Below are positions 2,790 through 48,883 of a stretch of DNA of 64,000 nt, one piece after another (positions within the stretch are counted from its first letter, which is position 1; each line of letters starts with the position of its first letter). Both the position numbers and the translations under genes were made by a program. The stretch is from the NCBI GenBank assembly GCA_002772605.1, contig PFDS01000040.1:14862-78861 (forward strand). The letters run 5' to 3'. Source of the stretch: Candidatus Peregrinibacteria bacterium CG10_big_fil_rev_8_21_14_0_10_49_16. GTDB lineage: Bacteria > Patescibacteriota > Gracilibacteria > Peribacterales > Peribacteraceae. Below the pieces are notes generated by a model, which worked only from the letters and a program-made list of their open reading frames with translations, searched no databases and was not told the origin of the DNA.

Positions 2790-3287
2790 ATGCCTATCGA
2801 AGCAGTCAAAATCCCGCAGAATGTCTACATTGAGGACCGTATTATCGGCCCCATCACACTGAAACAACTGATTCTCTCAGTGATTGGTAGCGGCATTAGT
2901 TATCTTCTGTGGACCGGATTCAGCAAGGCTTATGGCGATCAAGGAGTAAGTATTCCCTTGATCATCATTAGTATCATACCCGCTGTCATCTTCATGGCGT
3001 TTGCATTTGTGAAAGTCAATGATCTGTCACTCATGCGTATTACGCTCCTCTCTTTTGAACGCGTGGTCAAACCATCTATACGCATATGGACCCCTCGTGC
3101 CGGCGTGCCATTGAGCTTCACCAGCATCACACACGTCTCCAAAAATACACAGCAAGAAAAAGACATACAAAAGAAAGGAAAACTATCTGCAGAAGAATTG
3201 AGCTCAATTTTAGACACTCCTACTATACAAGATACACCCCTGCCTACCCAAAACAGGATCAATACTCCTCCCACTAAAACGTCATGA
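2790..3287 (+). CDS. PrgI/TcpE-like small membrane protein (type IV secretion-associated family)
   Basis: 165 aa. N-terminal VKIPQNVYIEDRIIGPITLKQL is followed by two hydrophobic helices. The stop overlaps the next start (ATGA). Confidence 0.45.
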   Translation: MPIEAVKIPQNVYIEDRIIGPITLKQLILSVIGSGISYLLWTGFSKAYGDQGVSIPLIIISIIPAVIFMAFAFVKVNDLSLMRITLLSFERVVKPSIRIWTPRAGVPLSFTSITHVSKNTQQEKDIQKKGKLSAEELSSILDTPTIQDTPLPTQNRINTPPTKTS

Positions 3288-16652: not shown

Positions 16653-18173
16653 ATGGAAAATCCATATTATTTTCAGCAGGAGGAAATACGACGACGCGAC
16701 GCAGAAAACGTTCTAATGTATGCACCAAAACACCACTCTCCAAACCTTATTCCATGGCCTCGTTGTCCGGAAGCAGAACAATATGTACAGGAACAGATCG
16801 AACATTTCCTTGAGAACCATACGTTTGCACGCGAGCTCCAAAAACGCATGCGGGAAGAAACGAGTACGCGCTTTACCGACTGGGTTGATCACGTGTCTAT
16901 CCCCTTACGCCCACAGCATCTTACGAGATTGAGCCAGACAGGATTTACCTGTCGGTATGAGCACAGTAAGCAAGGACACGGTATCCCCTACTGGCATCCT
17001 CATGGAGACTTTCCCGATATTCTTCTCCATAGCGATCCTCAAACACTGGAGGTGGCAATGAAAGTAGATTCGATCAAAGACTTTCTCATTTCCCATAACC
17101 GTCTTGATCTCATCGATCAGGTTGAAGGATCACGTTTTGGAAAGTTCCGCAGAATACGCATTCCGGAAGGAAGTATAATCCTCTCCATTGTTGAACGCAG
17201 AGGATACAAAGGATTCACTCCGGACACAGATCTGGAAGCGGAAGAAAAATATTTGCATGCAAAGGCCACTTGGGATTCGCGCATTCGTGACTTTGAGCCA
17301 AAGAGAGAGACAGAGGGCATGGAATACACTCTGCAACTCGCACAGAAAATAGCCGAAGACGTCGGGCCGGACCTTGCCGCAGATATTGCCATGGCATCGG
17401 AACGCGAATACTGGACAAAACGAAATGCAGCAGCACGGTTGCAAAAAGTAAGACAAGATCGACTGGGTCTTGGTTGGGCAAACCATGACCATCACACATT
17501 CCGTTCCAGCCGAAAGCATTACCTCACACTCATGAAAATTTTTCAAACATTGGGGTTTAAGAAACGTGAACGGTACTCACCTCCTGATGCAGACTGGGGC
17601 GCACAAATTTTTGAGCAACCAAATGCAGGTATTGTTATCTTCGCCGACGTTGACCTGTTTCCAGAAGAAAAAGAGGATGATTTCGATTTCTCTACACAGA
17701 AACTCCCGACAAAAAGAAAATGTTTTACCGTTGGACGCTGGTGTGCACTTCACGGAGACTCTATTCTCCAGGCAGGCATGCATCACCTCGAAGCGCAGTT
17801 TGATTTCGACAAATTAGAGACAGACTTGAAAGCACAAGACGTGCACATGATTGATCCATTTAGCAACGAATGCGATGCAGACAATCGTCTTTTCCTGAAA
17901 CAAACGTTTACGGAAGGAGAAATGTGGCCAGTGGACCAGGAACGACTGGATACGGCTCTATCACGCCGCGCCATTGGAAAAAAAACATACAATGCCATTA
18001 TGCAAACACGAAAAGCAGTCGGGAGCGTCCTGGAGAACCTTGAAAGAAATATGGGATATAAAGGTTTTAAACAGGAAGGCGTATCGGATGTTCTCGACCG
18101 CGTCGATCCCAAAAAACTTGCGGAGGAATCGGAAGAAACACGCCGTAAACTTACCAAAACTATGTCATCCTGA
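16653..18173 (+). CDS. hypothetical protein, possibly a VOC/DUF1338-like metalloenzyme
   Basis: 506 aa. The segments VDHVSIPL and GWANHDHHTFRS...LGFKKRERY resemble the metal-binding strands of glyoxalase-fold/DUF1338 enzymes. This assignment is tentative. Confidence 0.5.
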   Translation: MENPYYFQQEEIRRRDAENVLMYAPKHHSPNLIPWPRCPEAEQYVQEQIEHFLENHTFARELQKRMREETSTRFTDWVDHVSIPLRPQHLTRLSQTGFTCRYEHSKQGHGIPYWHPHGDFPDILLHSDPQTLEVAMKVDSIKDFLISHNRLDLIDQVEGSRFGKFRRIRIPEGSIILSIVERRGYKGFTPDTDLEAEEKYLHAKATWDSRIRDFEPKRETEGMEYTLQLAQKIAEDVGPDLAADIAMASEREYWTKRNAAARLQKVRQDRLGLGWANHDHHTFRSSRKHYLTLMKIFQTLGFKKRERYSPPDADWGAQIFEQPNAGIVIFADVDLFPEEKEDDFDFSTQKLPTKRKCFTVGRWCALHGDSILQAGMHHLEAQFDFDKLETDLKAQDVHMIDPFSNECDADNRLFLKQTFTEGEMWPVDQERLDTALSRRAIGKKTYNAIMQTRKAVGSVLENLERNMGYKGFKQEGVSDVLDRVDPKKLAEESEETRRKLTKTMSS

Positions 18174-18230: not shown

Positions 18231-18761
18231 ATGACACGCGATGTTATCCTCGTTGACGTTCAGGGAAACGCGATCGGCACCATGGAAATCTTTTCCGCTC
18301 ACGCAAAGCCTGGTCATCTCCACCGTGCATTTTCTGTGTGTGTCTTCCGAGAGAGCAACCGAGAAGAACTTCTCATTCAAAAACGGGCTCGTTTCAAACC
18401 TCTCTTCCCTCATCTCTGGAGCAATACTTGCTGCTCCCATCCATTTCCTGAAGAAAATATCGTCACTGCCGCAGAAAAACGTTTACAAGAAGAACTGGGG
18501 TTTACCTGTTTGCTAAAAAACGTGGGGGCATTTGTCTATCAGGCAGACGATCCTGCCACAGATCTCTCAGAACACGAACACGATACTGTCCTTATCGGCA
18601 CTATGCCGAACGCTGAAATTATCCCCAATCCACACGAAGTTGCAGACTGGAAATGGATCACCATTCGTACACTACAACAAGACATGACCGCATATCCGGA
18701 AAAATATTCCCCTTGGTTTGCACAGGTTCTCACCATCGCTCTACAGTGTGCTCATGTCTGA
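18231..18761 (+). CDS. idi: isopentenyl-diphosphate delta-isomerase, type 1 (Nudix)
   Basis: Motifs HRAFSVCVF...LLIQKRA..K..FP.LWSNTCCSHP and a Nudix-like E..RL.EELG. Confidence 0.85.
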   Translation: MTRDVILVDVQGNAIGTMEIFSAHAKPGHLHRAFSVCVFRESNREELLIQKRARFKPLFPHLWSNTCCSHPFPEENIVTAAEKRLQEELGFTCLLKNVGAFVYQADDPATDLSEHEHDTVLIGTMPNAEIIPNPHEVADWKWITIRTLQQDMTAYPEKYSPWFAQVLTIALQCAHV

Positions 18762-19434
18762 GAAAAAACTTCATCTTGCCATTATTCCCGATGGCAATCG
18801 CCGCTGGGCACGTGCGAAGGGACTCCATCCATGGGAAGGTCATGCGCGGGCAGTGGAAAATTTTCGGACAATTTCCGACTGGTGCAGAGCACATGAACAG
18901 ATCACCACCTTGACAATATGGTGTTTTTCAACGGAAAACTGGAAACGCGATAAAAAAGAGATCAGTAAGCTCATGTCACTTCTCGAAAATTATGTGAAGA
19001 AGAACCGTAACGATATGAACAAACAGCAAACACGTTTCCTGCATTCCGGCCGGAAAGACCGAATTCCTGCATCGTTGGCAAAATCTTTCACAGAGATTGA
19101 AAAAGAAACTAAACATAATGTTAAGTTTAATTTACATCTTGCACTAGATTATGGGGGGAAAGATGAAATCTTGAGAGCAATAGAGCGAATGAAAAACAAT
19201 GAAACACTCGCTCAAAATGACATACTGCGTCCCTACCTTGACCAACCAGATCTTCCCGATATCGACATCATCATTCGCACATCTGGGGAACATCGCACTA
19301 GCAACTTCTTTCTCTGGCAATCCACTTACGCCGAATGGTTCTTCCTTGAAAAGCATTTTCCAGACTTTGAAATAACAGACATTGAGCAAGTGCTTGACGA
19401 ATACGTACAAAGGCAGCGACGATTTGGCGGATGA
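18754..19434 (+). CDS. uppS: cis-prenyltransferase (undecaprenyl-diphosphate synthase family)
   Basis: Motifs HLAIIPDGNRRWA and IRTSGEHRTSNFFLWQSTYAEW. The start at 18754 overlaps the idi stop by 8 nt. Confidence 0.85.
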   Translation: MSEKKLHLAIIPDGNRRWARAKGLHPWEGHARAVENFRTISDWCRAHEQITTLTIWCFSTENWKRDKKEISKLMSLLENYVKKNRNDMNKQQTRFLHSGRKDRIPASLAKSFTEIEKETKHNVKFNLHLALDYGGKDEILRAIERMKNNETLAQNDILRPYLDQPDLPDIDIIIRTSGEHRTSNFFLWQSTYAEWFFLEKHFPDFEITDIEQVLDEYVQRQRRFGG

Positions 19435-20258
19435 ATGCCACCGAAAAAGCATCAGGCAAACTCATTCTCTCCGGCGAGTATGCCGTGGTATTTGGCCATC
19501 CGGGAATTGCCATCCCCATCCCCTTCACAACACAGGTAACTTACCATGAAAATAAGCATTATGAAGAAGCTCAATATATACAAAAAATAAAAAAGGAGTG
19601 TGAGACATTCACCGAGCCTCTGTCAGGAACATTCACAGTAGAAAGCGCCATCCCTATTGGCCGCGGCCTGGGATCATCCACGGCACTCGTGATTGCAATC
19701 GCACGATGTCTCAGCCTCACAAAAGAACAGGCTCTCTCCATCGAAGACACTATCAACCCCGGCCACAGCGGCATCGACTTCGAAACCATCTGGCAGGAAC
19801 GTCCGTTGAAATTTGTTAAAGGCCACAGGCCGGAGCCTGTCGATATCAATCTCGATTTCCTTGAAAATACCATCCTCATTGATACAGGAAAACCAAATGA
19901 AACAACACCAGAGTTGGTGAAATGGGTGAAAGACAATATGGCACCAGAAACATATCCCTTCCAGACCATCGCCCACTGCACCAAACGCCTCCTCCAAGGA
20001 GAATCTCCCCTCACAGTCTTCCCTGATCACCATCGGGCCCAAATCGCACTCGGCGTCGTCCCTAAAGAAGGGCAAAAACTTATTACAGAAATCGAATCCG
20101 TTGGCGGAGTAGCTAAAGTTCTCGGTGCGGGTGGAAGAACAGGCGGCGGAGGAATGGTATTGGCAGTACATTCGACGGTGAAGAACCTAGAAAAAGTCGC
20201 ACAATACTTTGCTTTTCCCATCCATCCGCTTCAAAATGACTTGCTGCACCTTGCATGA
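19431..20258 (+). CDS. mvk: mevalonate kinase (GHMP kinase)
   Basis: ASGKLILSGEYAVVFGHPGIAIPI and PIGRGLGSSTALVIAIA (GHMP motif 2). ATGA overlaps on both sides. At 275 aa it is short for the family. Confidence 0.75.
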   Translation: MNATEKASGKLILSGEYAVVFGHPGIAIPIPFTTQVTYHENKHYEEAQYIQKIKKECETFTEPLSGTFTVESAIPIGRGLGSSTALVIAIARCLSLTKEQALSIEDTINPGHSGIDFETIWQERPLKFVKGHRPEPVDINLDFLENTILIDTGKPNETTPELVKWVKDNMAPETYPFQTIAHCTKRLLQGESPLTVFPDHHRAQIALGVVPKEGQKLITEIESVGGVAKVLGAGGRTGGGGMVLAVHSTVKNLEKVAQYFAFPIHPLQNDLLHLA

Positions 20259-21265
20259 TTACTGTCACCTCCACCCCAAACATCGCCTTTATTAAATACT
20301 GGGGGAACCGCCATCAGGAATTGCGCTTACCAACAAACGATTCCTTATCGATGACGCTCGATTCTCCCATCGTTGAAGTTTCCATAGAAGAAACCAACAC
20401 ATTTTCGGTTACTTCGAACAAGGAACTCACCAAAAAAGACCAAGCGCGCTTGAAAATTCATCGAGAACTTGCACATCGCTACCTTACATCACTTCAGCCG
20501 GAATATGCACTACCGACAGTATCTGTCTCCATAACCTCACAAGTCCCCGCTGGTATTGGACTTGCCTCGTCTGCAGCAATTTTTAGCGGAATTACCAAAG
20601 CGTATGCCGAACTGCTCGCTCAAAAAGGAGTACACCTCACAAATGAACAGGTGAGTATCATGGCACGATTAGGATCTGGTTCAGCCTGCCGCAGCATTCA
20701 TGGGGGCTTTGTTGCCATACACGCAGGCTTAAGTGATAGCATCGATGCGGCAATAGCTGTTCAGATTGCTGACGAACATCACTGGAAACTCCACAATGTC
20801 GTTATTGCACCAAGTCTTCAGGAAAAAAAATATGGATCAAGTGAAGGTCACCAAATAGCACATACTAGTCCTTTCTTTACAGAAAGATTGCAGAAACTCT
20901 CAAAAAGACAACAAGAGTGCATTGATGCAATTTGTCATAAAGATTTTGAAAAACTCCAGCATGTGACTGAAGAGGATGCATGGAATATGCATAAAATTGC
21001 CGAAACGAGTACACCCTCTCTGTGTTACCTGACACAAGAAACGTATCGCATAACACAGGAAGTTGCACAACTACGAACAGAAAAACATCTGCCCGTTCTC
21101 TTCACTATGGATGCCGGACCCACGGTGCATCTTATCTGCACCGAAGAAGCCTGTGCCGATATCAGAGAATACGCTCACCAACAAACAGGATGCGCCATAT
21201 TCGAAACAAAAGTAGGAACTGGCGCACAGAGGAAAGCTGCCAAGCATGAAACCTGGCAGCTGTAG
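20255..21265 (+). CDS. mvaD: diphospho- or phospho-mevalonate decarboxylase (MVD family)
   Basis: Motifs PNIAFIKYWGNR, GIGLASSAA and GSGSACRS. Substrate (MVAPP versus MVAP) cannot be told from the sequence by eye. Confidence 0.8.
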   Translation: MITVTSTPNIAFIKYWGNRHQELRLPTNDSLSMTLDSPIVEVSIEETNTFSVTSNKELTKKDQARLKIHRELAHRYLTSLQPEYALPTVSVSITSQVPAGIGLASSAAIFSGITKAYAELLAQKGVHLTNEQVSIMARLGSGSACRSIHGGFVAIHAGLSDSIDAAIAVQIADEHHWKLHNVVIAPSLQEKKYGSSEGHQIAHTSPFFTERLQKLSKRQQECIDAICHKDFEKLQHVTEEDAWNMHKIAETSTPSLCYLTQETYRITQEVAQLRTEKHLPVLFTMDAGPTVHLICTEEACADIREYAHQQTGCAIFETKVGTGAQRKAAKHETWQL

Positions 21266-21273
21266 AACTCTGG

Positions 21274-21468
21274 TCACACCACCAGTTTTTTGCTGCAAAA
21301 TGGACAATACTGAATGGGGAGCTTGGCAGAAGTACTCTTCGTATCCCGATAGTTCAGCACGAGATGCAAAAAGGCTCCTTCATTCGGACATGCCACTACA
21401 ATGCTGTGCTCAGGACACTTCTTACGAAATACATCATGCCCCTTACATCTGTGTACAGGCGTTGGCAT
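21274..21468 (-). CDS. small Cys/His-rich protein (64 aa), hypothetical
   Basis: AAAGGAGGTGA lies 6 nt before the ATG at 21468. The product contains HRCKGH, CPEH, CP and CPFC. Confidence 0.5.
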   Translation of the reverse strand: MPTPVHRCKGHDVFRKKCPEHSIVVACPNEGAFLHLVLNYRDTKSTSAKLPIQYCPFCSKKLVV

Positions 21469-21539
21469 AGAAATCACCTCCTTTCAAGCAATAAATGACC
21501 AGTTACACTGAACATACTTCAAAAATATATAGATAAACA

Positions 21540-21568
21540 AGGGCAGTCATCGACATGACGACTGCCCT
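21540..21568 (-). terminator. rho-independent terminator after the DUF5698-like gene
   Basis: On the minus strand, AGGGCAGTC-N11-GACTGCCCT is followed by TGTTTATCT. Confidence 0.55.
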
Positions 21569-21573
21569 GTCAC

Positions 21574-21873
21574 TTACTGCTCCTTTGGAGCGTGTTCTTT
21601 GGAAATTTGCACTTCCATAGAAATCTTTTTCCGTGTGAATCGCGAATGGAGCATCGTTGCAACCACGCTTCCCACAGCAGTACCCGCTGCATAACACAGG
21701 ATATCCACTACCGACGGAACGTTCGTGACTACATGCCGAATGAGAAGAAGCCACGCGCCACTGACCAGAAACGTCCATCCGGCATTGAGGAAGTTCCGTT
21801 CCGTGTATGCAACGATTCTCAGCCGCATTACTACAAGAAAATCCCACAGAAACCCAAGCAGAAAGTATCCCAT
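21574..21873 (-). CDS. DUF5698/UPF0316-like membrane protein
   Basis: The start at 21873 is preceded by GAAGGAGGG. Pattern LRIVAYTERNFLNAGWTFLVSGAWLLLI...LCYAAGTAVGSVVATML. Confidence 0.6.
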   Translation of the reverse strand: MGYFLLGFLWDFLVVMRLRIVAYTERNFLNAGWTFLVSGAWLLLIRHVVTNVPSVVDILCYAAGTAVGSVVATMLHSRFTRKKISMEVQISKEHAPKEQ

Positions 21874-21942
21874 ATGTCCCTCCTTCCCTTGCTCTTTCAA
21901 GGAACAATACTAACAAGTAGTATATATCAGAACAGAAAGAGA

Positions 21943-23121
21943 ATGATAGCACAAATACGTATGGATTTCCGCACCCTCTCCATTCACGGCCGACGAGAAA
22001 CACTGGAACGAAAATTCTGCATTGATCTCTCAACACTCGCCATCAATGAGAAACACATTGGGCATGCCAACGAAAGAAACTGTGAACAGATGTTCGGCCA
22101 TGTGCCGATTCCTGTCGGGTACGCGGGACCACTTTCTATTACATTGAGCTGCGAGGAGAAGATCGAAGCGCACTTGCCACTGGCAACGACAGAAGCCGCA
22201 CTGATCGCCAGTGTGAACCGCGGATGTAAAGCTCTGCGGGAAGCGGGAGGAGCGCAGACAACATCGATCTATCACGGCATCACCCGATCCATTGCATTAA
22301 GAATGCAGAATGCAGAATGCAGAATGCAGAATTACGAAGAAGAAATTTCTCTAAAAAAAGAGGAATGGGTTGCGGTAGGTGAAGCAACCAGTAACCATCT
22401 CAAAATTTTGAAGTACGAAATAGACACACACGAAGATCTCCTCTTCCTCACCATCTACGCCGACACAGATGAAGCAATGGGAATGAATATGGTGACGATT
22501 GCAGCGGAGGAAATTGGAAAATGGATGGAAAAAAACTTCAACCTGGAATGTATAACCGTAGCCGCAAATGTGGATAGCGATAAAAAACCGAGTCAAAGAA
22601 CAAAGGAAAAAGGGCGCGGATATGAAGTGACGGCGACAGCTGTTCTTTCTGAAGAAGTCGTAGAATCAGTTCTCAAAACCACCCCGAAAGCACTGCTGGA
22701 AGTAGCGCATGCAAAATTGAAAGTTGGCTCGGAAATCGCCGGGGCTCTCGGCAAAAACTGTCATGCTGCTAACATCATCGCCGCCCTCTACCTCGCAACA
22801 GGACAGGATGCGGCACATGTTGTGGAGGGATCATTGGCAGAAACGCAAGTAAAAATTGATAATGGACAATTGAAAGTGATTGTACGAAATCCGGCAATCC
22901 TCGTTGGGATCCGCGGCGGCGGCACAACCCTTCCTGCCCAATCCCAAGCTCTCAATCTTCTACTAAAATCTACAGTTTCAGGTCTACAGTCTACGCAACA
23001 GCTTGCTGAAACCATCGGCGCGGCAGTTCTCGCTGGCGAACTCTCTCTCCTCGCAGCTCAATCCAGCCACACACTCGCAAAAAGTCATAAATTCCTTGCA
23101 CGATCTAGCCCCCTCCCCTAG
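21943..23121 (+). CDS. hmgA: HMG-CoA reductase, class I (archaeal/eukaryotic-type catalytic domain only)
   Basis: 392 aa from the ATG at 21943. Motifs EAALIASVNRGCKA, DAMGMNMV and IRGGGTTLPAQ. The 5-prime extension in the ORF track overlaps the opposite-strand gene and is rejected. Confidence 0.85.
   Translation: MIAQIRMDFRTLSIHGRRETLERKFCIDLSTLAINEKHIGHANERNCEQMFGHVPIPVGYAGPLSITLSCEEKIEAHLPLATTEAALIASVNRGCKALREAGGAQTTSIYHGITRSIALRMQNAECRMQNYEEEISLKKEEWVAVGEATSNHLKILKYEIDTHEDLLFLTIYADTDEAMGMNMVTIAAEEIGKWMEKNFNLECITVAANVDSDKKPSQRTKEKGRGYEVTATAVLSEEVVESVLKTTPKALLEVAHAKLKVGSEIAGALGKNCHAANIIAALYLATGQDAAHVVEGSLAETQVKIDNGQLKVIVRNPAILVGIRGGGTTLPAQSQALNLLLKSTVSGLQSTQQLAETIGAAVLAGELSLLAAQSSHTLAKSHKFLARSSPLP
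22301..22332 (+). repeat. heptanucleotide tandem repeat (GAATGCA x4.5) inside hmgA
   Basis: Direct reading gives gaatgca gaatgca gaatgca gaatgca gaat, which encodes RMQNAECRMQN. Confidence 0.95.
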
Positions 23122-23193: not shown

Positions 23194-24219
23194 ATGCATT
23201 CTGTAATCATTGGTTTCGGCAAATACCTCCCTCGTTATCGTATCCGCACGGAAGAAATAGCCAAACACTGGCAACAAGATGCAGCACATATTACTCAATC
23301 TCTTGGTATCGAAGAGAAAACGGTGCCGGCAGAGAACGAAGATAGTTTTACATTCGCATACGAAGCAGCCAAACAAGCTATCGAGGTTGCCAATATTCCT
23401 TCATCAGAAATTTCCGCCTGTTTCGTGGGATCGGAGAGTCACCCCTACGCCGTGAAACCTACAAGCGGAATGCTGGTTTCTGCCCTCGAACTCCACCCGT
23501 TCTCTCACGCAGCTGACCTGGAATTCGCCTGTAAGGCAGGAACCGCAGCAATGCAAATTGTGGACAGTTTCATACGGTCAAAACAAATCGAATACGGCCT
23601 TGCCATTGGCACAGACAGAGCACAGGCAAAAGCTGGCGATGCACTGGAGTATTCCGCGGCTGCTGGGGCCGCCGCCCTACTTCTTGGATCCGAAAAACAC
23701 GAAAATGCCCTTTGTCGCATGGACCATACGCTCTCTTTCACCACAGACACACCCGATTTCTGGCGAAGTGAAGGGGCATCTCACCCTGAACACGCCGGCC
23801 GCTTCACCGGCGAACCCGGCTACTTCTCTCACATGCGCGAAACCATCAGTGGTCTCCTAACCGCTACCCACTCATCGCTCCCTGCTATTCATCATGTGGT
23901 CCTCCATATGCCCAATGCGAAATTTCCCAAAAAAATCATGAAAGAGTTTGGATGTACGGATGCACAAGTTGCACATGGGTTTATCGTCCCTACTATCGGA
24001 AATACGTATAGCGCCTGTTCCCTCCTTGGCCTGGTAAACGTCCTACAACATGCTAAGAAAGAAGAAAGGATTATGCTGGTTTCCTATGGCTCTGGAGCAG
24101 GATGCGATGCTTTCCTGATGACCATGCTCCGACACGGGATGACGCTCTCTGAAGAAAGGAGAGATCTGGAGTATGTCTCCTACAGCAAATATTCTCAGCT
24201 GGTACAATCTCACCAGTAA
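23194..24219 (+). CDS. HMG-CoA synthase, archaeal type
   Basis: 341 aa. Motifs GFGKYLPRYRI, EDSFTFA, GSESHPYAVKP and DLEFACKAGT. Confidence 0.85.
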   Translation: MHSVIIGFGKYLPRYRIRTEEIAKHWQQDAAHITQSLGIEEKTVPAENEDSFTFAYEAAKQAIEVANIPSSEISACFVGSESHPYAVKPTSGMLVSALELHPFSHAADLEFACKAGTAAMQIVDSFIRSKQIEYGLAIGTDRAQAKAGDALEYSAAAGAAALLLGSEKHENALCRMDHTLSFTTDTPDFWRSEGASHPEHAGRFTGEPGYFSHMRETISGLLTATHSSLPAIHHVVLHMPNAKFPKKIMKEFGCTDAQVAHGFIVPTIGNTYSACSLLGLVNVLQHAKKEERIMLVSYGSGAGCDAFLMTMLRHGMTLSEERRDLEYVSYSKYSQLVQSHQ

Positions 24220-24256
24220 TCTATACTACAGATACCAATCCTCTGAACTGACTCAC

Positions 24257-25366
24257 GTGCAGAGAGACATCTTCCTTATTGGCTCGGGACAAACACGCTT
24301 TGGCGAATGGTGGCATATGAGCCTCCAAGATCTCGTACAGAAAGCAATGGACACAAGTATAGAAAATGCACCATGTACAGCACTGGATATTGACATGGTC
24401 ATTACGGCAAACATGCTGGGGGAACTCACAAATAATCAAGCACATGTTGGCGCTCTCGCCTCTGCACTCCTTCCACATAAACCCCCGGCCCTTCGTATCG
24501 AAGCAGCATGTGCATCCGGTTCTGTTGCTCTTCATACGGCTTGCGCATTCCTTGAAAGTGAACGTGCTGAAACAATTCTTGTTCTTGGTGTAGAGAAAAT
24601 GACAGATGTCTCTTCTGAGCAGATCACACGCGCGCTCATGGGAGCATCAGACAACGAAAAGGACCAAGTGCCTGGTCTGACATTTCCCGGAATTTTTGGA
24701 CTGATTGCCAAGCGGTATATGTACGAATACGGACTCAAACGTGAAGAGTTGAATATCGTGAGTGCACGCCATCACGAAAATGCATCAAAGAACCCCAACG
24801 CGCAATTTCGTAGCCCCATTGCACCAGAGTCCGTGGAGACAAGCCCCCTTGTTGCCGATCCGCTTCACATGCTCGATTGCTCCCCCATTAGCGATGGGGC
24901 TGCTGCGTGCATCCTGAGCACAAAGTACAAAAGTCCTTTTCAACTGCGTGCATCGACACTCGCAAATGATGCGGTCAGTATTACTGACCGTGAATCCATT
25001 ACAAGCTTCTCTGCAACAAAAGAAGCTCTGGAAAAAGCATTGAAAGAGGCATGTATTAGACGAGAAGATATTGCCACAATCGAACATCACGACTGTTTTT
25101 CCATTGCAGCAGTGATCAACATGGAAGACTTGGGCTTCGCAGATAAAGGAAAGGGCATTGAATGTTACACAAAACCTTCATCACACACCTTTAATGCTAG
25201 TGGGGGCTTAAAAGCCTGCGGCCACCCTGTTGGTGCAACCGGCATTAAGCAATTGATCGATGTGCGTAAACAGTTAGAACACTCACAGAGTCGTTACGGA
25301 TTGGCCCACAACTTCGGCGGTGCCTGCGCCACCTGTTGCGTCCATATCCTCGAGTACACCGTATAA
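24257..25366 (+). CDS. acetyl-CoA C-acetyltransferase (archaeal-type thiolase)
   Basis: Motifs IEAACASGSVALHTA and GGACATCCV. A GTG start at 24257 is chosen so that the conserved DIFLIGSGQTRFGE N-terminus is kept without overlapping the upstream gene. Confidence 0.8.
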   Translation: MQRDIFLIGSGQTRFGEWWHMSLQDLVQKAMDTSIENAPCTALDIDMVITANMLGELTNNQAHVGALASALLPHKPPALRIEAACASGSVALHTACAFLESERAETILVLGVEKMTDVSSEQITRALMGASDNEKDQVPGLTFPGIFGLIAKRYMYEYGLKREELNIVSARHHENASKNPNAQFRSPIAPESVETSPLVADPLHMLDCSPISDGAAACILSTKYKSPFQLRASTLANDAVSITDRESITSFSATKEALEKALKEACIRREDIATIEHHDCFSIAAVINMEDLGFADKGKGIECYTKPSSHTFNASGGLKACGHPVGATGIKQLIDVRKQLEHSQSRYGLAHNFGGACATCCVHILEYTV

Positions 25367-26287
25367 ATGTCTACTCCTTCCATCGCTCATCGGGCTCTGA
25401 AGACACGAAATCAGAAGAATCAATCTGGAACAATTATCTCATATACGACGATCACACAATCTCAGTCCCACACTATTGCGTTGATCGAACTGGAAGACGG
25501 TTCACGGGTACTGGGACAGATAGTGTGTCACTCTGAGCAAAATATGCTCAGTGCAACAGCACTCATTGGCCAACGCGTCATGCCTCGCATGGCACTCTCC
25601 TCTATAACGGAGCAGGGCCTTCGCATCTACGACATTTCCTACGAAGTCATCATACAGAAAAAAATTGATACATTTGATGAAAGCGTGTTTCCACGCTATA
25701 TCCTCGCTATTACCGGCCCTTCAGGAGTAGGAAAATCTACCGTCAGCAAACTACTGGGAACTGTCTGCAGCCACTCTATGACACGCGTCCCTATTCTGAC
25801 GACACGTCACCCTAAAGAGGGTGATGATGGCGAATATACATACGTATCGCAGAAAGAATTTGAAAAACTACACAAAGAAGGGAAACTCGCTGCGTACACT
25901 GATATTCCATCAAACAGCGAGGAACGCCGATACGGCTACGTAGTAGAAGACCTTGAGAGAATCTGGGAAAATGGGAAAGTGCCCGTTGTGGTCACAGAAA
26001 TGCACCTGTTGCAGGGATTGGCGCAACACTTTGGACGTCGCTCCATCCTCTCCTTCGGCCTCCTTCCTCCAGGGAAAAGCCGACGTGCAATGCTCAGTTC
26101 ACTCCTCTTTCGTCTGCGAAAACGTGGCCGCGAAACCGAAGCACAGATCCGTGAACGCCTCAAACATGCTGTGCAAGACCTGCAATTCTTCAAAGAACGT
26201 GCCGAACTCTTCGACCACATTCTCGTCAACGAAGATTTGGATACACTCATCAAAACGTTCCAGAAACATGCACTAGAAACTGTATAA
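25367..26287 (+). CDS. fusion protein: DUF35-type OB-fold domain plus guanylate-kinase-like P-loop domain
   Basis: aa ~20-95: GTIISYTTITQSQSHTIALIELEDGSRVLGQIV...IGQRVMPRM is the DUF35 OB pattern, with no Zn-ribbon cysteines. aa ~105-290: ITGPSGVGKSTV and TTRHPKEGDDGEYTYVSQKEFE are a guanylate-kinase signature. The ATG directly abuts the thiolase stop. Confidence 0.7.
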   Translation: MSTPSIAHRALKTRNQKNQSGTIISYTTITQSQSHTIALIELEDGSRVLGQIVCHSEQNMLSATALIGQRVMPRMALSSITEQGLRIYDISYEVIIQKKIDTFDESVFPRYILAITGPSGVGKSTVSKLLGTVCSHSMTRVPILTTRHPKEGDDGEYTYVSQKEFEKLHKEGKLAAYTDIPSNSEERRYGYVVEDLERIWENGKVPVVVTEMHLLQGLAQHFGRRSILSFGLLPPGKSRRAMLSSLLFRLRKRGRETEAQIRERLKHAVQDLQFFKERAELFDHILVNEDLDTLIKTFQKHALETV

Positions 26288-26288
26288 C

Positions 26289-27881
26289 CTATCTTCCAGG
26301 GCACATTGCTGCGATAGCATCTGACACAAGACCGAGAAAATTCTTTTCAAAGTACTCTTTGAATTCTAACGCCAATGCATCTGCTACACGATCGTAGTCA
26401 TCGGGATGGGACCACATCTTTTTTGGATTGAGCAGGTTTTCGTCCACTCCAGGACAAACCAAAGGAACAGCCACATGAAACTTGCGGTACTCCCAATAGG
26501 GCACACTGTGTAATTCCCCACGTAATGCAGCACACACAAGGTGACGCGTCACGGCAATATCCATTCGCTCTCCAACTCCATACGGACCACCACTCCAGCC
26601 TGTGTTCACAAGATAGACCGCTGATCCATATTGCGTCAGTTTCTGCTGAAAGAGATCCAAGTAGTCCTGTGGTTTTCGTGGCATAAACGGACCACCGAAA
26701 AATCGCGAAAATGTCGCTTTTGGCTTTGTGATACCCGCTTCGGTTCCTGCGAGTTTGGATGTGTATCCGAGTAAGAACCAGAGCATCGCCTGCTCTGTAT
26801 TCAACTTCGCAATGGGAGGAAGCACCCCACTCGCATCAGCTGTAAGGAAGATAATCGTGGAAGGATGTGCCCCTTGTCCACCCTTTTTTACATTCTGCAA
26901 ACTGGTCAATGGATAGGTAGCACGGGAATTTTCAGTGAACCGATCATCATCGGTGTCGATAGTGCCGTCGGGATAGACCATAGCATTCTCAATAATGGCA
27001 TCTTGTCCTTGTTCCAGAACTGCCATATAGATCTCCGGTTCCTTCTCTTTGCGAAGACCGATCAATTTCGCATAGCACCCGTTCTCCATATTCGCAATAC
27101 CCTCATCCGACCATAGATGTTCGTCGTCGCCAATCATCTTTCTCTGAGAATCACTGGATAAGGTTGTCTTACCAGTTCCTGACAAACCGAGAAAGAGCGC
27201 CGTCGACCCGTCAGGAGCTTCATTTGCACTGCAGTGCAGTGGCAGAATTCCGTGTTCTGGGAGAAGCGCATTCATCACTGTAAAAGCGAGCTTCTTCACA
27301 GAACCAAGATAAGAAGATCCATATACCAATCCTCGACGTCTCTGGAAATCCATTGCGATAAGTGCCTTGGAGGATCCTGGTCGCTGTACAGTATCATATG
27401 GCAACACAAGAATGGTTAATGGATCACCAAGTTGAGATTCTGCATATTGAGCATCCAAAAACATATTCAGAGTGAATAGTGTACTCAGTGCACTATCAGT
27501 AACCGTCTGCACTGAAAGTGCATACTGTGGGTGTGCTCCCACAGACCGGTGTGTGACGTAGAGCCGTTCTTTTTGAGACAACATGTGTTGCGCTTCAGAC
27601 CATACCTCATCAAATACGTTGGGTTCCATAGGAATACACGTCTGCGAAAAACTCCAGTCAATGGTAGGATCTCCTGGGTGACAGACCATGTACGTATTTT
27701 GAGGAATGCGTCCTGTTGACAGTGCGGGGCGCCACACAGCAAGCGCACCGGAGGCACTCGGAAGTGCCTCACGGACCGTGAGAATCTCATCTACAAGAGA
27801 GGAACGTGATGGATCTACCCAGATATTCGGATGCGTGGTAAGCAATGATGTGGAAACAGAAGAAGTGGCAACAGAAGACAT
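26289..27881 (-). CDS. pckA: phosphoenolpyruvate carboxykinase (ATP)
   Basis: 530 aa. Kinase-1a motif GLSGTGKTTLS, with IGDDEH and a typical N-terminal PEPCK-ATP region. Confidence 0.9.
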   Translation of the reverse strand: MSSVATSSVSTSLLTTHPNIWVDPSRSSLVDEILTVREALPSASGALAVWRPALSTGRIPQNTYMVCHPGDPTIDWSFSQTCIPMEPNVFDEVWSEAQHMLSQKERLYVTHRSVGAHPQYALSVQTVTDSALSTLFTLNMFLDAQYAESQLGDPLTILVLPYDTVQRPGSSKALIAMDFQRRRGLVYGSSYLGSVKKLAFTVMNALLPEHGILPLHCSANEAPDGSTALFLGLSGTGKTTLSSDSQRKMIGDDEHLWSDEGIANMENGCYAKLIGLRKEKEPEIYMAVLEQGQDAIIENAMVYPDGTIDTDDDRFTENSRATYPLTSLQNVKKGGQGAHPSTIIFLTADASGVLPPIAKLNTEQAMLWFLLGYTSKLAGTEAGITKPKATFSRFFGGPFMPRKPQDYLDLFQQKLTQYGSAVYLVNTGWSGGPYGVGERMDIAVTRHLVCAALRGELHSVPYWEYRKFHVAVPLVCPGVDENLLNPKKMWSHPDDYDRVADALALEFKEYFEKNFLGLVSDAIAAMCPGR

Positions 27882-48176: not shown

Positions 48177-48883
48177 GCAGAACACAGTAGATCAGATACG
48201 CACTCCAAAGCCACGGTGTTATATGCATAATCCATACGCATGGGACCAACAATACCTAAAGCCCCACGGTGACCACGCATACTGTACTGCGTCACAATTA
48301 TGCTACAACTCTGCATTTGCGGTAACAGGTGCTCTTCTCCAATGTAGTATCGTACCTGTCTATCAACATTCACGGTCTGCAGTAAGTCAACGAGCCTGCC
48401 CTCCAATACTTCCACAACACCCGACGCAAGTGATTGGTCCGCAAGAAACTCCGGTAACCGCAAAGTATTGGCAAGACCCAGGTAGTGTACATGATGCTTA
48501 TGCGGAACCGTGGCAAATGCGATATTGGGAATCATATTGGAGAGAAGGGCCACCGCCTCGTAGACACGTTCCTGATCTTTACGTTGAAAGTATTGCTCTC
48601 GCAGAACATCGAAACGCTTGCGCACAATGCGTTCCTGTTGAGACGGTTCCATGAACTCCTTCACATATGCCCGATACCCTTTCGCTGTCGGAACACGTCC
48701 TGCGGAAATATGCGGCTGCATCAAAAATCCCTCATCTTCCAAATGGGCCATCTCATGACGAATGGTTGCCGGCGACACAATAAATGCCCCGCTCTCCAAA
48801 AGGCTTTTCGAACCTACAGGCAGTGCTGTGTGAATAAACTGGTCAATAATGGCAATGAGAAGCTTGCTTTGCCGTACATTCAT
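48173..48883 (-). CDS. hrcA: heat-inducible transcription repressor HrcA (short form)
   Basis: MNVRQSKLLIAIIDQFIHTALPVGSKSL (wHTH) and C-terminal LGIVGPMRMDY. At 236 aa it is shorter than typical HrcA. Confidence 0.8.
   Translation of the reverse strand: MNVRQSKLLIAIIDQFIHTALPVGSKSLLESGAFIVSPATIRHEMAHLEDEGFLMQPHISAGRVPTAKGYRAYVKEFMEPSQQERIVRKRFDVLREQYFQRKDQERVYEAVALLSNMIPNIAFATVPHKHHVHYLGLANTLRLPEFLADQSLASGVVEVLEGRLVDLLQTVNVDRQVRYYIGEEHLLPQMQSCSIIVTQYSMRGHRGALGIVGPMRMDYAYNTVALECVSDLLCSA

What the first reader, a model, noticed from the sequence alone, without database searches (positions are those of the whole stretch)
25367..26287. DUF35 OB-fold fused to a divergent guanylate-kinase-like domain at the end of the mevalonate operon
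In archaea the thiolase and HMG-CoA synthase are held together by a small DUF35 scaffold protein; this is established for the archaeal thiolase/HMGCS/DUF35 complex. Here the ORF that abuts the thiolase stop begins with a DUF35-type OB segment (GTIISYTTITQSQSHTIALIELEDGSRVLGQIV) and lacks the usual Zn-ribbon cysteines. It continues into a P-loop domain with guanylate-kinase signatures (GPSGVGKST, TTRHPKEGDDGEYTYVSQKEF). The guanine-binding region looks altered: LAAYTDIPSNSEERRYGY sits where I expect ..E......YGT. The visible cluster has MVK and an MVD-family decarboxylase but no GHMP phosphomevalonate kinase and no isopentenyl-phosphate kinase. Animal phosphomevalonate kinase is a P-loop NMP-kinase-fold enzyme, so a P-loop kinase filling this gap has precedent. 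The hypothesis is that this fusion is the missing mevalonate-pathway kinase, tethered to the thiolase/HMGCS complex.
Basis: partly seen in the sequence, partly recalled or inferred. Interest (0 to 1): 0.7.

Follow-up and report, generated by a model that had tools for sequence, protein, structure and literature searches.

The report
Scaffold-fused kinase completing a mevalonate pathway
The last gene of this bacterium's mevalonate operon fuses the small scaffold protein of the first two pathway enzymes to a guanylate-kinase-like enzyme that has lost its guanine-binding residues, and it is the best candidate for the pathway's missing final kinase, most likely one acting on isopentenyl phosphate.

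Summary
Window 25367-26287 (+) encodes a 306-aa protein with a DUF35-type OB fold lacking the Zn ribbon, a flexible linker, and a guanylate-kinase (GK)-fold P-loop domain. It starts directly after the thiolase stop, at the end of an IDI-UPPS-MVK-decarboxylase-HMGR-HMGCS-thiolase operon. The organism is a Candidatus Peregrinibacteria (CPR) bacterium. The fusion is a conserved family there and always sits in this position.

The domain keeps every catalytic and phosphate-binding residue. The guanine-reading residues are replaced: E69 by A/S/T, S80 by Y, S34 by I.

A closed Peribacter genome has a separate canonical gmk. It has no KEGG-recognised PMK or IPK and no MEP genes.

The operon's decarboxylase carries the phosphomevalonate-decarboxylase signature (YWGN..R, GH) and is closest to the Anaerolinea enzyme of that type. 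The missing step is therefore more likely isopentenyl phosphate to IPP than phosphomevalonate kinase.

Other CPR operons have a Lys/Arg-type decarboxylase, two GHMP kinases, a plain DUF35 and no GK-like gene.

Stand-alone orthologues sit next to UPPS without mevalonate genes. Some fusion lineages have a degenerate kinase site.

Nothing has been tested biochemically.

The parts
25367..26287 (+). Fusion ORF of 306 aa: DUF35-type OB fold, linker and guanylate-kinase-fold P-loop kinase. Identical to NCBI hypothetical protein COU77_02800 of a Candidatus Peregrinibacteria bacterium.
25424..25648 (+). OB-fold domain (aa 20-94), homologous to the OB half of DUF35. The Zn-ribbon half is absent; aa 1-19 form a short helix instead.
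   Evidence: PF01796 hit; 19 of 19 family N-termini hit PF01796; profile best PDB hit 6esq_E/6et9 'Pfam DUF35' at E=3.4e-7, aligned to chain residues 50-110; model strands 21-94
25649..25696 (+). Low-confidence inter-domain linker (aa 95-110)
   Evidence: pLDDT below 50 at aa 99-105 and pTM 0.58; poorly conserved columns
25697..26269 (+). Guanylate-kinase-fold kinase domain (aa 111-301)
   Evidence: PF00625; Foldseek top hit yeast GK 1gky at E=3.9e-15, TM 0.84 normalised to the target; PDB sequence hits are all guanylate kinases
25715..25738 (+). P-loop GPSGVGKS (aa 117-124). K123 is invariant in 118 of 118 family members.
25799..25843 (+). Acceptor phosphate-binding motif TTRHPKEGDDGEYTY (aa 145-159). 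R147 corresponds to yeast R38, K150 to R41 and Y157 to Y50; all are conserved.
25892..25939 (+). Remodelled base-binding region AYTDIPSNSEERRYGY (aa 176-191). E69 becomes A176 and S80 becomes Y191 (118/118). A 4-aa insertion carries E185 (115/118) and invariant R187. Y189 (yeast Y78) is kept.
26111..26158 (+). Lid region RLRKRGRETEAQIRER (aa 249-264), with invariant R249, R251, R253 and R264
24173..25366 (+). Archaeal-type acetoacetyl-CoA thiolase. The true start is probably about 30 codons into the ORF.
   Evidence: NF004720 378 bits and NF053570 349 bits
23194..24219 (+). Archaeal-type HMG-CoA synthase
   Evidence: NF003274 399 bits, above cut-off 244
21592..23121 (+). Class I HMG-CoA reductase. 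Homology starts at about aa 124-131 of the ORF, so the real start is near 21960.
   Evidence: PF00368 299.7 bits, aa 131-503
20255..21265 (+). MVD-family decarboxylase with the phosphomevalonate-decarboxylase signature (YWGN18R..LR24, SEGH199)
   Evidence: best PDB hit 6n0x A. thermophila PMD at 165.6 bits, against 132 for S. solfataricus DMD; signature conserved in relatives
19431..20258 (+). The operon's only GHMP kinase, a divergent mevalonate kinase. It is the orthologue of the first of the two GHMP kinases in other CPR operons.
   Evidence: TIGR00549 81.8 bits, below cut-off
18718..19434 (+). Undecaprenyl diphosphate synthase (cis-prenyltransferase), a consumer of IPP
   Evidence: PF01255 229 bits; TIGR00055 200 bits
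18231..18761 (+). Type 1 isopentenyl-diphosphate isomerase
   Evidence: NF002995 155.6 bits, above cut-off 127

Best explanation
The gene encodes a two-domain protein.

The N-terminal domain is the CPR-type, ribbon-less version of DUF35. DUF35 is the OB-fold subunit that in archaea bridges acetoacetyl-CoA thiolase and HMG-CoA synthase.

The C-terminal domain is an active P-loop phosphotransferase of the guanylate-kinase fold. It keeps the machinery for transferring the ATP gamma-phosphate onto the phosphate of a phosphomonoester, but it no longer recognises guanine.

I propose that it converts isopentenyl phosphate (IP) to isopentenyl diphosphate (IPP). That makes it a non-homologous replacement of the amino-acid-kinase-fold IPK. 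The route it would complete is the Chloroflexi/haloarchaeal-type one: mevalonate -> mevalonate-5-P (single GHMP kinase) -> IP (phosphomevalonate decarboxylase) -> IPP (this kinase) -> IDI / UPPS.

Shown: the domain architecture, residue conservation, operon position, co-occurrence pattern, a separate gmk, and the absence of recognisable PMK and IPK in a closed relative genome.

Inferred: the substrate, the catalytic activity, and physical attachment to the thiolase/HMGCS complex.
For: 1. Architecture and fold.

2. Residues in 118 fusion proteins. Invariant are P-loop K123, R147 (yeast GK R38), Y157 (Y50), Y189 (Y78), E211 (D100) and lid R249/R251/R253/R264. K150 (R41) is K or R in 113. The guanine-contacting residues are replaced: S34 by I, E69 by A/S/T, S80 by Y (118/118). 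The enzyme is therefore built to phosphorylate a phosphate group but not GMP.

3. The closed Ca. Peribacter riflensis genome (1102 genes, table not truncated) has a canonical 200-aa gmk (gene 213, K00942 157.7 bits) and the fusion orthologue (gene 643, 312 aa) directly after the thiolase. It has no K00938, K13273 or K06981, no entry containing 'phosphomevalonate' or 'isopentenyl phosphate', and none of the four MEP-pathway KOs searched (K01662, K00919, K03527, K00099). The authors state that only the steps to mevalonate-5-P and from mevalonate-5-PP onward were identified.

4. The decarboxylase is PMD-like. Its best PDB hit is 6n0x (165.6 bits), which PMC9254496 identifies as A. thermophila PMD bound to MVA5P. 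DMDs score 104-132 bits. The variant chain 6n0z differs from 6n0x within the aligned region only by N->K in YWGNR and H->M in GH. Characterised DMDs have K and M. The window enzyme and all Peregrinibacteria orthologues have N and H, plus the Arg six residues after the Asn. Dellas et al. 2013 (PMC3857490, Table 4) report Lys at this position in all MDDs and never in MPDs.

5. Comparative pattern in 93 loci.
- Every Peregrinibacteria-type locus has an N-type decarboxylase, one GHMP kinase and no AAK-type IPK. Wherever the fetched DNA reaches the gene after the thiolase, that gene is the fusion.
- Other CPR operons have a Lys/Arg-type decarboxylase, two GHMP kinases (MVK plus a PMK-like one), a plain DUF35 and no GK-family gene.
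- One N-type locus (L152) has MVK plus a bona fide AAK IPK (NF040647 152 bits, above cut-off 120).

6. Stand-alone orthologues are 51-60% identical to the window's kinase domain and keep all the key residues. They lie beside UPPS, once also beside a trans-polyprenyl synthase, with no mevalonate gene within 10 kb. This fits an enzyme that makes IPP, not one that makes mevalonate-5-PP.
Against: - No biochemical data exist.
- The substrate call rests on a few signature residues of a neighbouring enzyme. Other CPR decarboxylases with Lys also carry the Arg and the His, so only the Lys/Asn position discriminates within CPR.
- The NJ tree does not place the Peregrinibacteria decarboxylases inside the PMD clade; they form their own long branch. 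The score preference is modest: N-type mean 177 bits against K-type 161.
- The remodelled pocket contains invariant charged residues (E185, R187). These could equally serve the carboxylate and hydroxyl of phosphomevalonate.
- Five of about ten full-length 50%-identity clusters of the fusion have lost acceptor, lid or P-loop residues (P0123, P0125, P0126, P0130, P0132). In those lineages the domain cannot be the essential kinase.
- The closed Peribacter genome holds two other amino-acid-kinase-fold genes of uncertain role: gene 544 (437 aa, argB-like, 76.9 bits, just under threshold) and gene 735 (265 aa, proB-like, 173.9 bits).
- I could not show that the genomes with stand-alone kinases lack mevalonate genes elsewhere.
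- A stand-alone member in Ca. Kentron sits in a context unrelated to isoprenoids.
Confidence: 0.5

Rival explanations
1. Phosphomevalonate kinase. The GK-like domain would convert mevalonate-5-P to mevalonate-5-PP, and the operon's decarboxylase would act as a classical diphosphomevalonate decarboxylase.
For: - The same gap argument applies: the closed relative genome has no PMK.
- Compared with other CPR operons, Peregrinibacteria lack precisely the second, PMK-like GHMP kinase.
- The decarboxylase passes the TIGR01240 'diphosphomevalonate decarboxylase' cut-off (192.5 against 171).
- Invariant R187 and E185 in the new insertion could bind the carboxylate and hydroxyl of phosphomevalonate.
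- Animal PMK is also a P-loop NMP-kinase-fold enzyme (established knowledge).
Against: - The decarboxylase has Asn where all characterised DMDs have Lys, and it matches A. thermophila PMD at all three signature positions.
- TIGR01240 may not separate PMDs from DMDs. I did not test this.
- Stand-alone orthologues sit next to UPPS with no MVK or decarboxylase nearby. A PMK would have neither substrate nor product sink there.
- There is no Pfam hit to the animal PMK family.
Confidence: 0.2
2. A kinase for another isoprenoid monophosphate, such as dimethylallyl-P, geranyl/farnesyl-P or a polyprenyl-P. It would serve salvage or recycling rather than the de novo pathway.
For: - Stand-alone members are embedded in UPPS / His_Phos_1 phosphatase / WecG / UDP-GlcNAc 2-epimerase / Wzy-like clusters. 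These are concerned with undecaprenyl-linked envelope polymers.
- Hydrophobic replacements occur at the former guanine site: I143, A176, Y191.
Against: - It would leave the Peregrinibacteria pathway still without an IP or PMK step.
- The GK fold's acceptor site is small and soluble-substrate-sized (established knowledge of the fold).
- The strict fusion to the DUF35 subunit of the first pathway enzymes argues for a role in the C5 pathway.
Confidence: 0.1
3. A mainly non-catalytic GK-like module, comparable to MAGUK GK domains. It would help assemble or regulate the thiolase/HMGCS complex, for example by binding a phosphorylated pathway intermediate.
For: - Several fusion lineages keep the domain although P-loop Lys, acceptor Arg/Tyr and lid Arg are lost. 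The segment GRRxxLSxGLLPPGxSxRAMLS stays conserved.
- The DUF35 Zn-ribbon half is missing, so the extra domain could supply contacts.
Against: - In the 118 closest members, and in all stand-alone members, every catalytic residue is invariant or nearly so. This indicates selection for catalysis.
- Ribbon-less DUF35 proteins work as stand-alone ~100-aa genes in other CPR operons, so no extra domain is needed for assembly.
Confidence: 0.1
4. A second, divergent guanylate or nucleoside-monophosphate kinase that happens to be fused to DUF35.
For: - JGI and KEGG label it guanylate kinase.
- The fold and the phosphate-binding residues are those of GK.
- guaA lies three genes from the stand-alone form.
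Against: - The guanine-specific residues S34, E69 and S80 are all replaced.
- The TIGR03263 score is half the cut-off.
- A canonical gmk exists in the closed relative genome.
- The operon position is conserved with mevalonate genes.
Confidence: 0.05

Closest known systems
Guanylate kinase (Gmk/Guk1, EC 2.7.4.8; PF00625, TIGR03263)
   Same: Same fold (TM 0.84 to yeast GK), P-loop, lid arginines, and the Arg/Tyr residues that hold the acceptor's phosphate. The chemistry is presumably the same: phosphomonoester plus ATP gives a diphosphate.
   Different: The guanine-reading residues are replaced (S34 by I, E69 by A/S/T, S80 by Y). A conserved 4-aa insertion carries E185 and R187. The score is half the equivalog cut-off. 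The domain is fused to an OB fold and encoded in a mevalonate operon, and a separate canonical gmk exists in a closed relative genome.
DUF35 subunit of the archaeal thiolase/HMG-CoA synthase/DUF35 complex (PDB 6esq/6et9)
   Same: The OB-fold half is homologous (profile E=3.4e-7). The gene lies directly after archaeal-type HMGCS and thiolase genes.
   Different: It lacks the N-terminal rubredoxin-like Zn ribbon, as do the stand-alone DUF35 genes of other CPR operons. It carries a ~200-aa kinase at its C-terminus. Complex formation is untested.
Isopentenyl phosphate kinase (amino-acid-kinase fold; NF040647, K06981)
   Same: The proposed reaction (IP + ATP -> IPP + ADP) and pathway position after a phosphomevalonate decarboxylase. 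Both show genomic linkage with IDI or prenyltransferase genes, as reported for CPR IPK (PMC6107057).
   Different: There is no sequence or fold relationship. This would be an analogous, non-homologous enzyme.
Animal phosphomevalonate kinase (P-loop NMP-kinase fold, PF04275)
   Same: It is a precedent for a P-loop NMP-kinase-like enzyme phosphorylating a mevalonate-pathway phosphomonoester.
   Different: There is no detectable sequence similarity (no Pfam hit). The decarboxylase signature here argues that the acceptor is IP rather than phosphomevalonate.
PhnN, ribose 1,5-bisphosphate phosphokinase (GK-family member with a non-nucleotide acceptor)
   Same: It shows that the GK fold has been recruited before to turn a non-nucleotide phosphomonoester into a diphosphate. 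There is weak similarity (TIGR02322 33 bits).
   Different: The score is far below the cut-off (156), and the pathway and context are unrelated.

Membership tests
Guanylate kinase (EC 2.7.4.8) | GK fold / PF00625 domain | tested here: met
   PF00625 54.5 bits, above gathering score 25.2; Foldseek 1gky E=3.9e-15, TM 0.84 normalised to the target
Guanylate kinase (EC 2.7.4.8) | Score at or above the curated equivalog cut-off (TIGR03263) | tested here: not met
   80.9 bits against cut-off 160.45
Guanylate kinase (EC 2.7.4.8) | P-loop and residues binding the acceptor phosphate (yeast K14, R38, R41, Y50, Y78) | tested here: met
   K123, R147, Y157 and Y189 are invariant; K150 is K or R in 113 of 118
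Guanylate kinase (EC 2.7.4.8) | Guanine-recognition residues (yeast S34, E69, S80) | tested here: not met
   I143; A/S/T176; Y191 in 118 of 118
Guanylate kinase (EC 2.7.4.8) | Provides the genome's GMP kinase function | tested here: not met
   The closed Ca. Peribacter riflensis genome has a separate 200-aa gmk (gene 213) in addition to the fusion orthologue (gene 643). Not testable for the window's own genome beyond its 64 kb.
DUF35 scaffold of the thiolase/HMGCS complex | C-terminal OB-fold domain (PF01796) | tested here: met
   27.8 bits for the isolated N-terminus, above gathering score 27.1; 19 of 19 family members hit; best PDB hit 6esq_E DUF35
DUF35 scaffold of the thiolase/HMGCS complex | N-terminal rubredoxin-like Zn ribbon (four Cys) | tested here: not met
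   112 of 120 homologues have no Cys, and 8 have one, in the first 45 aa. The alignment covers only residues 50-110 of 6esq_E. Other CPR DUF35 genes lack it too.
DUF35 scaffold of the thiolase/HMGCS complex | Encoded next to archaeal-type thiolase and HMGCS | tested here: met
   window and L001, L003, L081, L083, L085, L087, L090, L094-L108
DUF35 scaffold of the thiolase/HMGCS complex | Forms a physical complex bridging thiolase and HMGCS | not testable with these tools
   Needs co-purification or a multimer structure.
Isopentenyl phosphate kinase (AAK fold) | Amino-acid-kinase fold / NF040647 or K06981 homology | tested here: not met
   No such hit for the fusion. An IPK HMM finds nothing in the window or in any Peregrinibacteria locus. 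The proposal is functional analogy only.
Isopentenyl phosphate kinase (AAK fold) | Catalyses IP + ATP -> IPP + ADP | not testable with these tools
   Enzyme assay needed.
Phosphomevalonate kinase (GHMP type or animal P-loop type) | Homology to TIGR01220 / NF040957 (GHMP type) or PF04275 (animal type) | tested here: not met
   None among the Pfam or NCBIfam hits of the fusion.
Phosphomevalonate decarboxylase (the neighbouring gene 20255-21265) | Non-Lys residue at the S. epidermidis MDD Lys21 position, Arg six residues later, and His instead of Met196 | tested here: met
   YWGN18RHQELR24 and SEGH199, identical in type to A. thermophila PMD 6n0x. DMDs have K and M.
Phosphomevalonate decarboxylase (the neighbouring gene 20255-21265) | Prefers mevalonate-5-phosphate over mevalonate-5-diphosphate | not testable with these tools
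   Enzyme assay needed.

The most novel reading that the evidence does not exclude
A previously unrecognised, non-homologous class of isopentenyl phosphate kinase built on the guanylate-kinase fold. In Peregrinibacteria it would be covalently tethered, through a ribbon-less DUF35 OB domain, to the thiolase/HMG-CoA synthase complex, completing a phosphomevalonate-decarboxylase-type mevalonate pathway in a CPR bacterium. As a stand-alone enzyme next to UPPS in sister lineages, it may let them make IPP from salvaged isopentenyl phosphate.
Probability: 0.45. Interest if true: 0.8.

Novelty: new variant of a known kind. Interest (0 to 1): 0.68.

Why it matters
If the prediction holds, four things follow.

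1. It closes a gap that the authors of the first closed Peregrinibacteria genomes left open. They described the mevalonate pathway as only 'near-complete'.

2. It adds a further bacterial lineage, besides Chloroflexi, that would use the decarboxylate-then-phosphorylate route. This bears on the debate about which mevalonate pathway variant is ancestral (Hoshino & Gaucher 2018).

3. It would be a clean case of non-orthologous displacement, in which a nucleotide kinase fold is retuned to a C5 prenyl phosphate.

4. It would provide a compact P-loop IP kinase of possible use in engineered isopentenol-utilisation pathways.

The fusion of a late-pathway kinase to the scaffold of the first two enzymes, and its decay to a pseudo-kinase in some lineages, also raises a testable question: does the early mevalonate complex recruit late steps?

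Tried and rejected
- Sole-gmk idea: rejected. A separate gmk exists in a closed relative genome.
- Canonical PMK or IPK nearby: none found in the 64-kb window by Pfam annotation of all sizeable ORFs, nor with an IPK HMM built from two NCBIfam-verified IPKs.
It returned only three fusion loci, and the other 77 were ordinary gmk genes of unrelated phyla, so it was little use for phylogenetic profiling.
- Taxonomy of the stand-alone lineage: exact-sequence look-ups returned no names. It was inferred only from 55-60% identity of UPPS and the kinase to the window's proteins.
- Natural-experiment test: does a conventional IPK or PMK appear where the fused kinase is degenerate? Inconclusive, because the contigs are only 6-8.5 kb.
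- Thomas et al. 2019 (engineering of the decarboxylase): the paper is not held. Its content was inferred from the 6n0x/6n0z sequence difference and from the citing paper.
- HMM-based calls on the decarboxylase are uninformative: TIGR01240 is passed, while NF040704 is far below cut-off.
- The NJ tree does not resolve where the Peregrinibacteria decarboxylases attach.
- Promoter/terminator and Rfam scans of the operon gave nothing beyond four tRNAs elsewhere.
- Model coordinates could not be inspected, so no pocket analysis or docking was possible.
Full report
**1. The observation**

Window 25367-26287 (+) is an intact 306-aa ORF. Its ATG directly follows the TAA of the upstream thiolase gene.

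Pfam finds the DUF35/ChsH2 OB fold (PF01796) at aa 20-72, E=5.9e-6. It finds Guanylate_kin (PF00625) at aa 113-300, E=1.5e-14 and 54.5 bits against a gathering score of 25.2. NCBIfam's guanylate-kinase equivalog reaches only 80.9 bits against a cut-off of 160.

The ORF is identical to a 'hypothetical protein' of a Candidatus Peregrinibacteria bacterium of the CPR/Patescibacteria.

The AlphaFold model has mean pLDDT 83. It shows an N-terminal helix, an OB barrel (strands 21-94), a disordered linker (99-105) and a GK-fold domain (112-301). Foldseek's best PDB match is yeast guanylate kinase 1gky, with E=3.9e-15 and TM 0.84 normalised to the target.

A profile of 19 family N-termini finds as its best solved structure the DUF35 chain of the Methanothermococcus thiolase/HMGCS/DUF35 complex (6esq/6et9, E=3.4e-7). 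The alignment covers only chain residues 50-110 of 130, which is the OB half. The Zn-ribbon half has no counterpart. Of 120 homologues, 112 have no cysteine and 8 have one in the first 45 residues.

**2. Surroundings**

Upstream, on the same strand and tightly packed, lie these genes:
- type 1 IDI (18231-18761)
- UPPS (18718-19434)
- one GHMP kinase (19431-20258)
- an MVD-family decarboxylase (20255-21265)
- class I HMGR (21592-23121)
- archaeal-type HMGCS (23194-24219)
- archaeal-type thiolase (24173-25366)

Downstream, pckA converges on the other strand.

I annotated every sizeable ORF of the 64-kb window. There is no second guanylate-kinase domain, no third GHMP protein and no amino-acid-kinase-fold protein. 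An HMM built from two verified IPKs also finds nothing.

**3. A conserved family**

The whole-database search returns 460 homologues. The top 120 are almost all ~300-aa proteins of the same architecture, 51-68% identical, and those that carry names are Peregrinibacteria or Peribacteria.

In every contig long enough to judge, the gene follows HMGCS-thiolase. Usually it ends the full operon IDI-UPPS-MVK-decarboxylase-HMGR-HMGCS-thiolase.

Among 1.84 billion 50%-identity representatives, only 19 score below 1e-30. The family is small and lineage-restricted.

**4. Is it a guanylate kinase?**

I aligned the family to yeast Guk1, whose GMP contacts I take from established structural knowledge of 1GKY: phosphate-binding R38, R41, Y50 and Y78, and guanine-binding S34, E69, S80 and D100.

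The family keeps the following:
- P-loop lysine K123, 118/118
- R147 (yeast R38), 117/118
- K150 (yeast R41), K or R in 113
- Y157 (yeast Y50), Y189 (yeast Y78) and E211 (yeast D100), all invariant
- four invariant lid arginines

The residues that read the guanine base are replaced. S34 is Ile, E69 is Ala/Ser/Thr, and S80 is Tyr in all 118. A conserved 4-residue insertion carries E185 (115/118) and invariant R187.

The domain therefore looks like an active kinase that still phosphorylates a phosphate group but cannot recognise guanine.

The closed genome of Ca. Peribacter riflensis has a canonical 200-aa gmk (gene 213, K00942 157.7 bits). It also has the fusion orthologue (gene 643, 312 aa, 103.7 bits) directly after its thiolase. 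Its gene table has 1102 genes and was not truncated. The fusion is thus not the genome's gmk.

**5. Is a pathway kinase really missing?**

The same gene table contains none of the following:
- K00938 or K13273 (PMK)
- K06981 (IPK)
- any entry with 'phosphomevalonate' or 'isopentenyl phosphate'
- any of the four MEP-pathway KOs I searched (K01662, K00919, K03527, K00099)

The authors say that only the steps to mevalonate-5-P and from mevalonate-5-PP onward were identified. They call the pathway 'near-complete'.

Caveat: two other amino-acid-kinase-fold genes exist there. Gene 544 is argB-like (437 aa, 76.9 bits, just below threshold). Gene 735 is proB-like (265 aa, 173.9 bits). Neither was assigned to IPK, and I could not inspect their sequences.

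**6. Which kinase is missing?**

The decarboxylase's best solved relative is 6n0x, at 165.6 bits. S. solfataricus DMD scores 132, and the bacterial and eukaryotic DMDs score 104-119. PMC9254496 identifies 6n0x as Anaerolinea thermophila phosphomevalonate decarboxylase (PMD) with bound mevalonate-5-phosphate. It also states that Thomas et al. converted PMD specificity into DMD specificity by mutagenesis.

The deposited variant 6n0z differs from 6n0x, within the aligned region, at exactly two positions: YWGNR becomes YWGKR and GH becomes GM. The DMDs of S. solfataricus and S. aureus have K and M. The window enzyme has N18 and H199.

Dellas et al. 2013 (Table 4) report Lys at this position in MDDs of all domains and never in MPDs. 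They report an Arg six residues later as an MPD feature predicted to clash with the second phosphate. The window enzyme has that Arg (R24).

The same three residues are conserved in all Peregrinibacteria orthologues examined.

The most economical reading is therefore MVK -> PMD -> isopentenyl phosphate. The missing enzyme is then an IP kinase.

**7. Comparative test**

A metagenome scan with the decarboxylase alignment gave 80 loci. I analysed these together with 13 of the earlier loci, using local HMMs, and checked key ORFs with NCBIfam. Three patterns emerge.

(i) About twenty Peregrinibacteria-type loci. The decarboxylase is N-type, there is one GHMP kinase, and there is no AAK-IPK. Wherever the fetched DNA reaches the gene after the thiolase, that gene is the fusion.

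(ii) Other CPR-like operons (L133, L136, L151, L169; similarly L112 and L114).
- Gene order in L133, L136, L151 and L169 is HMGR-HMGCS-thiolase, then a stand-alone ~100-aa DUF35, then two GHMP kinases, then the decarboxylase and UPPS. L112 and L114 share the segment from the two GHMP kinases onward.
- The stand-alone DUF35 also lacks the Zn ribbon.
- The second GHMP kinase has the higher PMK-model scores.
- The decarboxylase has Lys or Arg at the key position.
- There is no GK-family gene.
- The window's single GHMP kinase resembles the first of these two kinases (55-74 bits) and not the second (19 bits or less). Peregrinibacteria therefore lack the PMK-like gene.

(iii) L152. An N-type decarboxylase lies next to MVK and a bona fide AAK IPK (NF040647 152 bits, above cut-off 120).

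So Lys-type goes with a PMK-like gene, and Asn-type goes with either a conventional IPK or the GK-like kinase.

Limits of this test:
- Other CPR Lys-type enzymes also carry the Arg and the His, so only the Lys/Asn position discriminates within CPR.
- A rough NJ tree leaves the Peregrinibacteria clade on its own long branch.
- The window enzyme's score preference for N-type relatives is modest: mean 177 bits against 161.

**8. Stand-alone orthologues**

Proteins of 194-235 aa, 43-60% identical to the window's kinase domain, keep all the family's catalytic and acceptor residues. They occur without the OB domain.

In six of the seven contexts examined they lie beside UPPS, and the seventh (L089) shares the same cluster without a detectable UPPS. 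One also lies beside a trans-polyprenyl synthase. The conserved cluster is WecG - His_Phos_1 - UPPS - His_Phos_1 - kinase - UDP-GlcNAc 2-epimerase - Wzy-like - guaA. No mevalonate gene lies within 10 kb.

Their UPPS is 55-57% identical to the window's, the same level as among fusion-bearing relatives. They therefore belong to a sister Peregrinibacteria lineage.

A kinase retained beside IPP-consuming prenyltransferases, away from MVK and the decarboxylase, fits IP -> IPP better than MVA5P -> MVA5PP. It also parallels the reported IPK-IDI linkage in CPR genomes that lack other mevalonate genes (PMC6107057). I could not check whether these genomes carry mevalonate genes elsewhere.

A stand-alone copy in Ca. 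Kentron, a gammaproteobacterial symbiont, sits in an unrelated context.

**9. Complication**

Five of about ten full-length 50%-identity clusters of the fusion (P0123, P0125, P0126, P0130, P0132) have lost acceptor Arg/Tyr, lid Arg or the P-loop Lys. They retain the segment GRRxxLSxGLLPPGxSxRAMLS. They still follow HMGCS-thiolase.

In those lineages the domain is a pseudo-kinase, so it must also have, or have acquired, a structural role. Alternatively the kinase function moved to another gene. The contigs are too short to tell.

**10. Literature and novelty**

No paper in the searchable library links a GK-like or P-loop kinase to IPK or PMK function in CPR, or describes this fusion. Database names are 'hypothetical protein', 'OB-fold domain-containing protein' or 'guanylate kinase'.

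**11. Verdict**

I refine it to a probable isopentenyl phosphate kinase of the guanylate-kinase fold, with confidence about 0.5. PMK is the main rival, at about 0.2.

Tethering to the thiolase/HMGCS complex is inferred from homology and gene order only. All functional statements await enzyme assays.

Noticed in passing
window 16653-18173 (+): A 506-aa ORF immediately upstream of IDI has no Pfam, NCBIfam or PDB sequence match. It is not found at this position in related operons.
   Followed up: partly
window 21266-21960: About 650-700 nt lie between the decarboxylase stop and the part of the HMGR ORF that shows homology (aa 131 onward). The stretch contains a 12-bp-stem hairpin at 21540-21568. 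Relatives have only 0-260 nt here.
   Followed up: no
window 57379-59566 (-): Two tandem genes each carry DUF1246 plus DUF1297. I take these to be PurP-like (archaeal-type FAICAR synthetase) domains from prior knowledge, not from a test here; that would be an archaeal-style purine enzyme, duplicated, in a CPR bacterium.
   Followed up: no
window 2790-3287 (+) and 45459-48185 (-): A PrgI-family protein and a TrwB/VirD4-like coupling ATPase. These are components resembling a type IV secretion or conjugation system.
   Followed up: no
L085 4064-4951; L090 2400-3311 (proteins P0130, P0132; also P0123, P0125, P0126): These fusion proteins have lost the P-loop Lys, acceptor Arg/Tyr or lid Arg in the kinase domain, yet the domain and its position after the thiolase are kept. 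They are apparent pseudo-kinases.
   Followed up: partly
L088 7953-10642; L089 1844-3929; L091 7870-10651; L084 5073-6187: Stand-alone orthologues of the kinase are preceded, often with overlapping stop and start, by one or two histidine-phosphatase-family (His_Phos_1) genes and UPPS. The cluster is conserved and also holds WecG, UDP-GlcNAc 2-epimerase, a Wzy-like gene and guaA. The phosphatase-kinase pairing is unexplained.
   Followed up: partly
L133 3214-3567; L136 7574-7906; L151 7835-8146; L169 7571-7924; L111 14804-15259: Stand-alone DUF35 genes of other CPR mevalonate operons are only ~100 aa. They lack the Zn-ribbon cysteines and have a conserved N-terminal PVKxWRxQK motif. L111 retains a CxxC...CxxC ribbon.
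   Followed up: partly
L092 10001-10675 (P0354; cluster of P0127): A stand-alone member of the kinase family, 50% identical to the window's kinase domain, occurs in several Candidatus Kentron (Gammaproteobacteria) assemblies. It lies between type II secretion/pilin genes and a 158-aa ORF with no Pfam hit; a Qat-type defence cluster and purH lie further out. This suggests horizontal transfer and a role outside a mevalonate operon.
   Followed up: partly
L137 7420-11857: An operon holds UPPS, an AAK-type IPK, a GHMP kinase, a Lys-type decarboxylase and a second GHMP kinase. It therefore carries the genes for both the PMK/DMD-like and the IPK-type routes.
   Followed up: no
window 26285-26291: The fusion's stop codon is separated by a single nucleotide from the stop codon of the convergent pckA gene (26289-27881, -). 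This leaves no room for a terminator between them.
   Followed up: no
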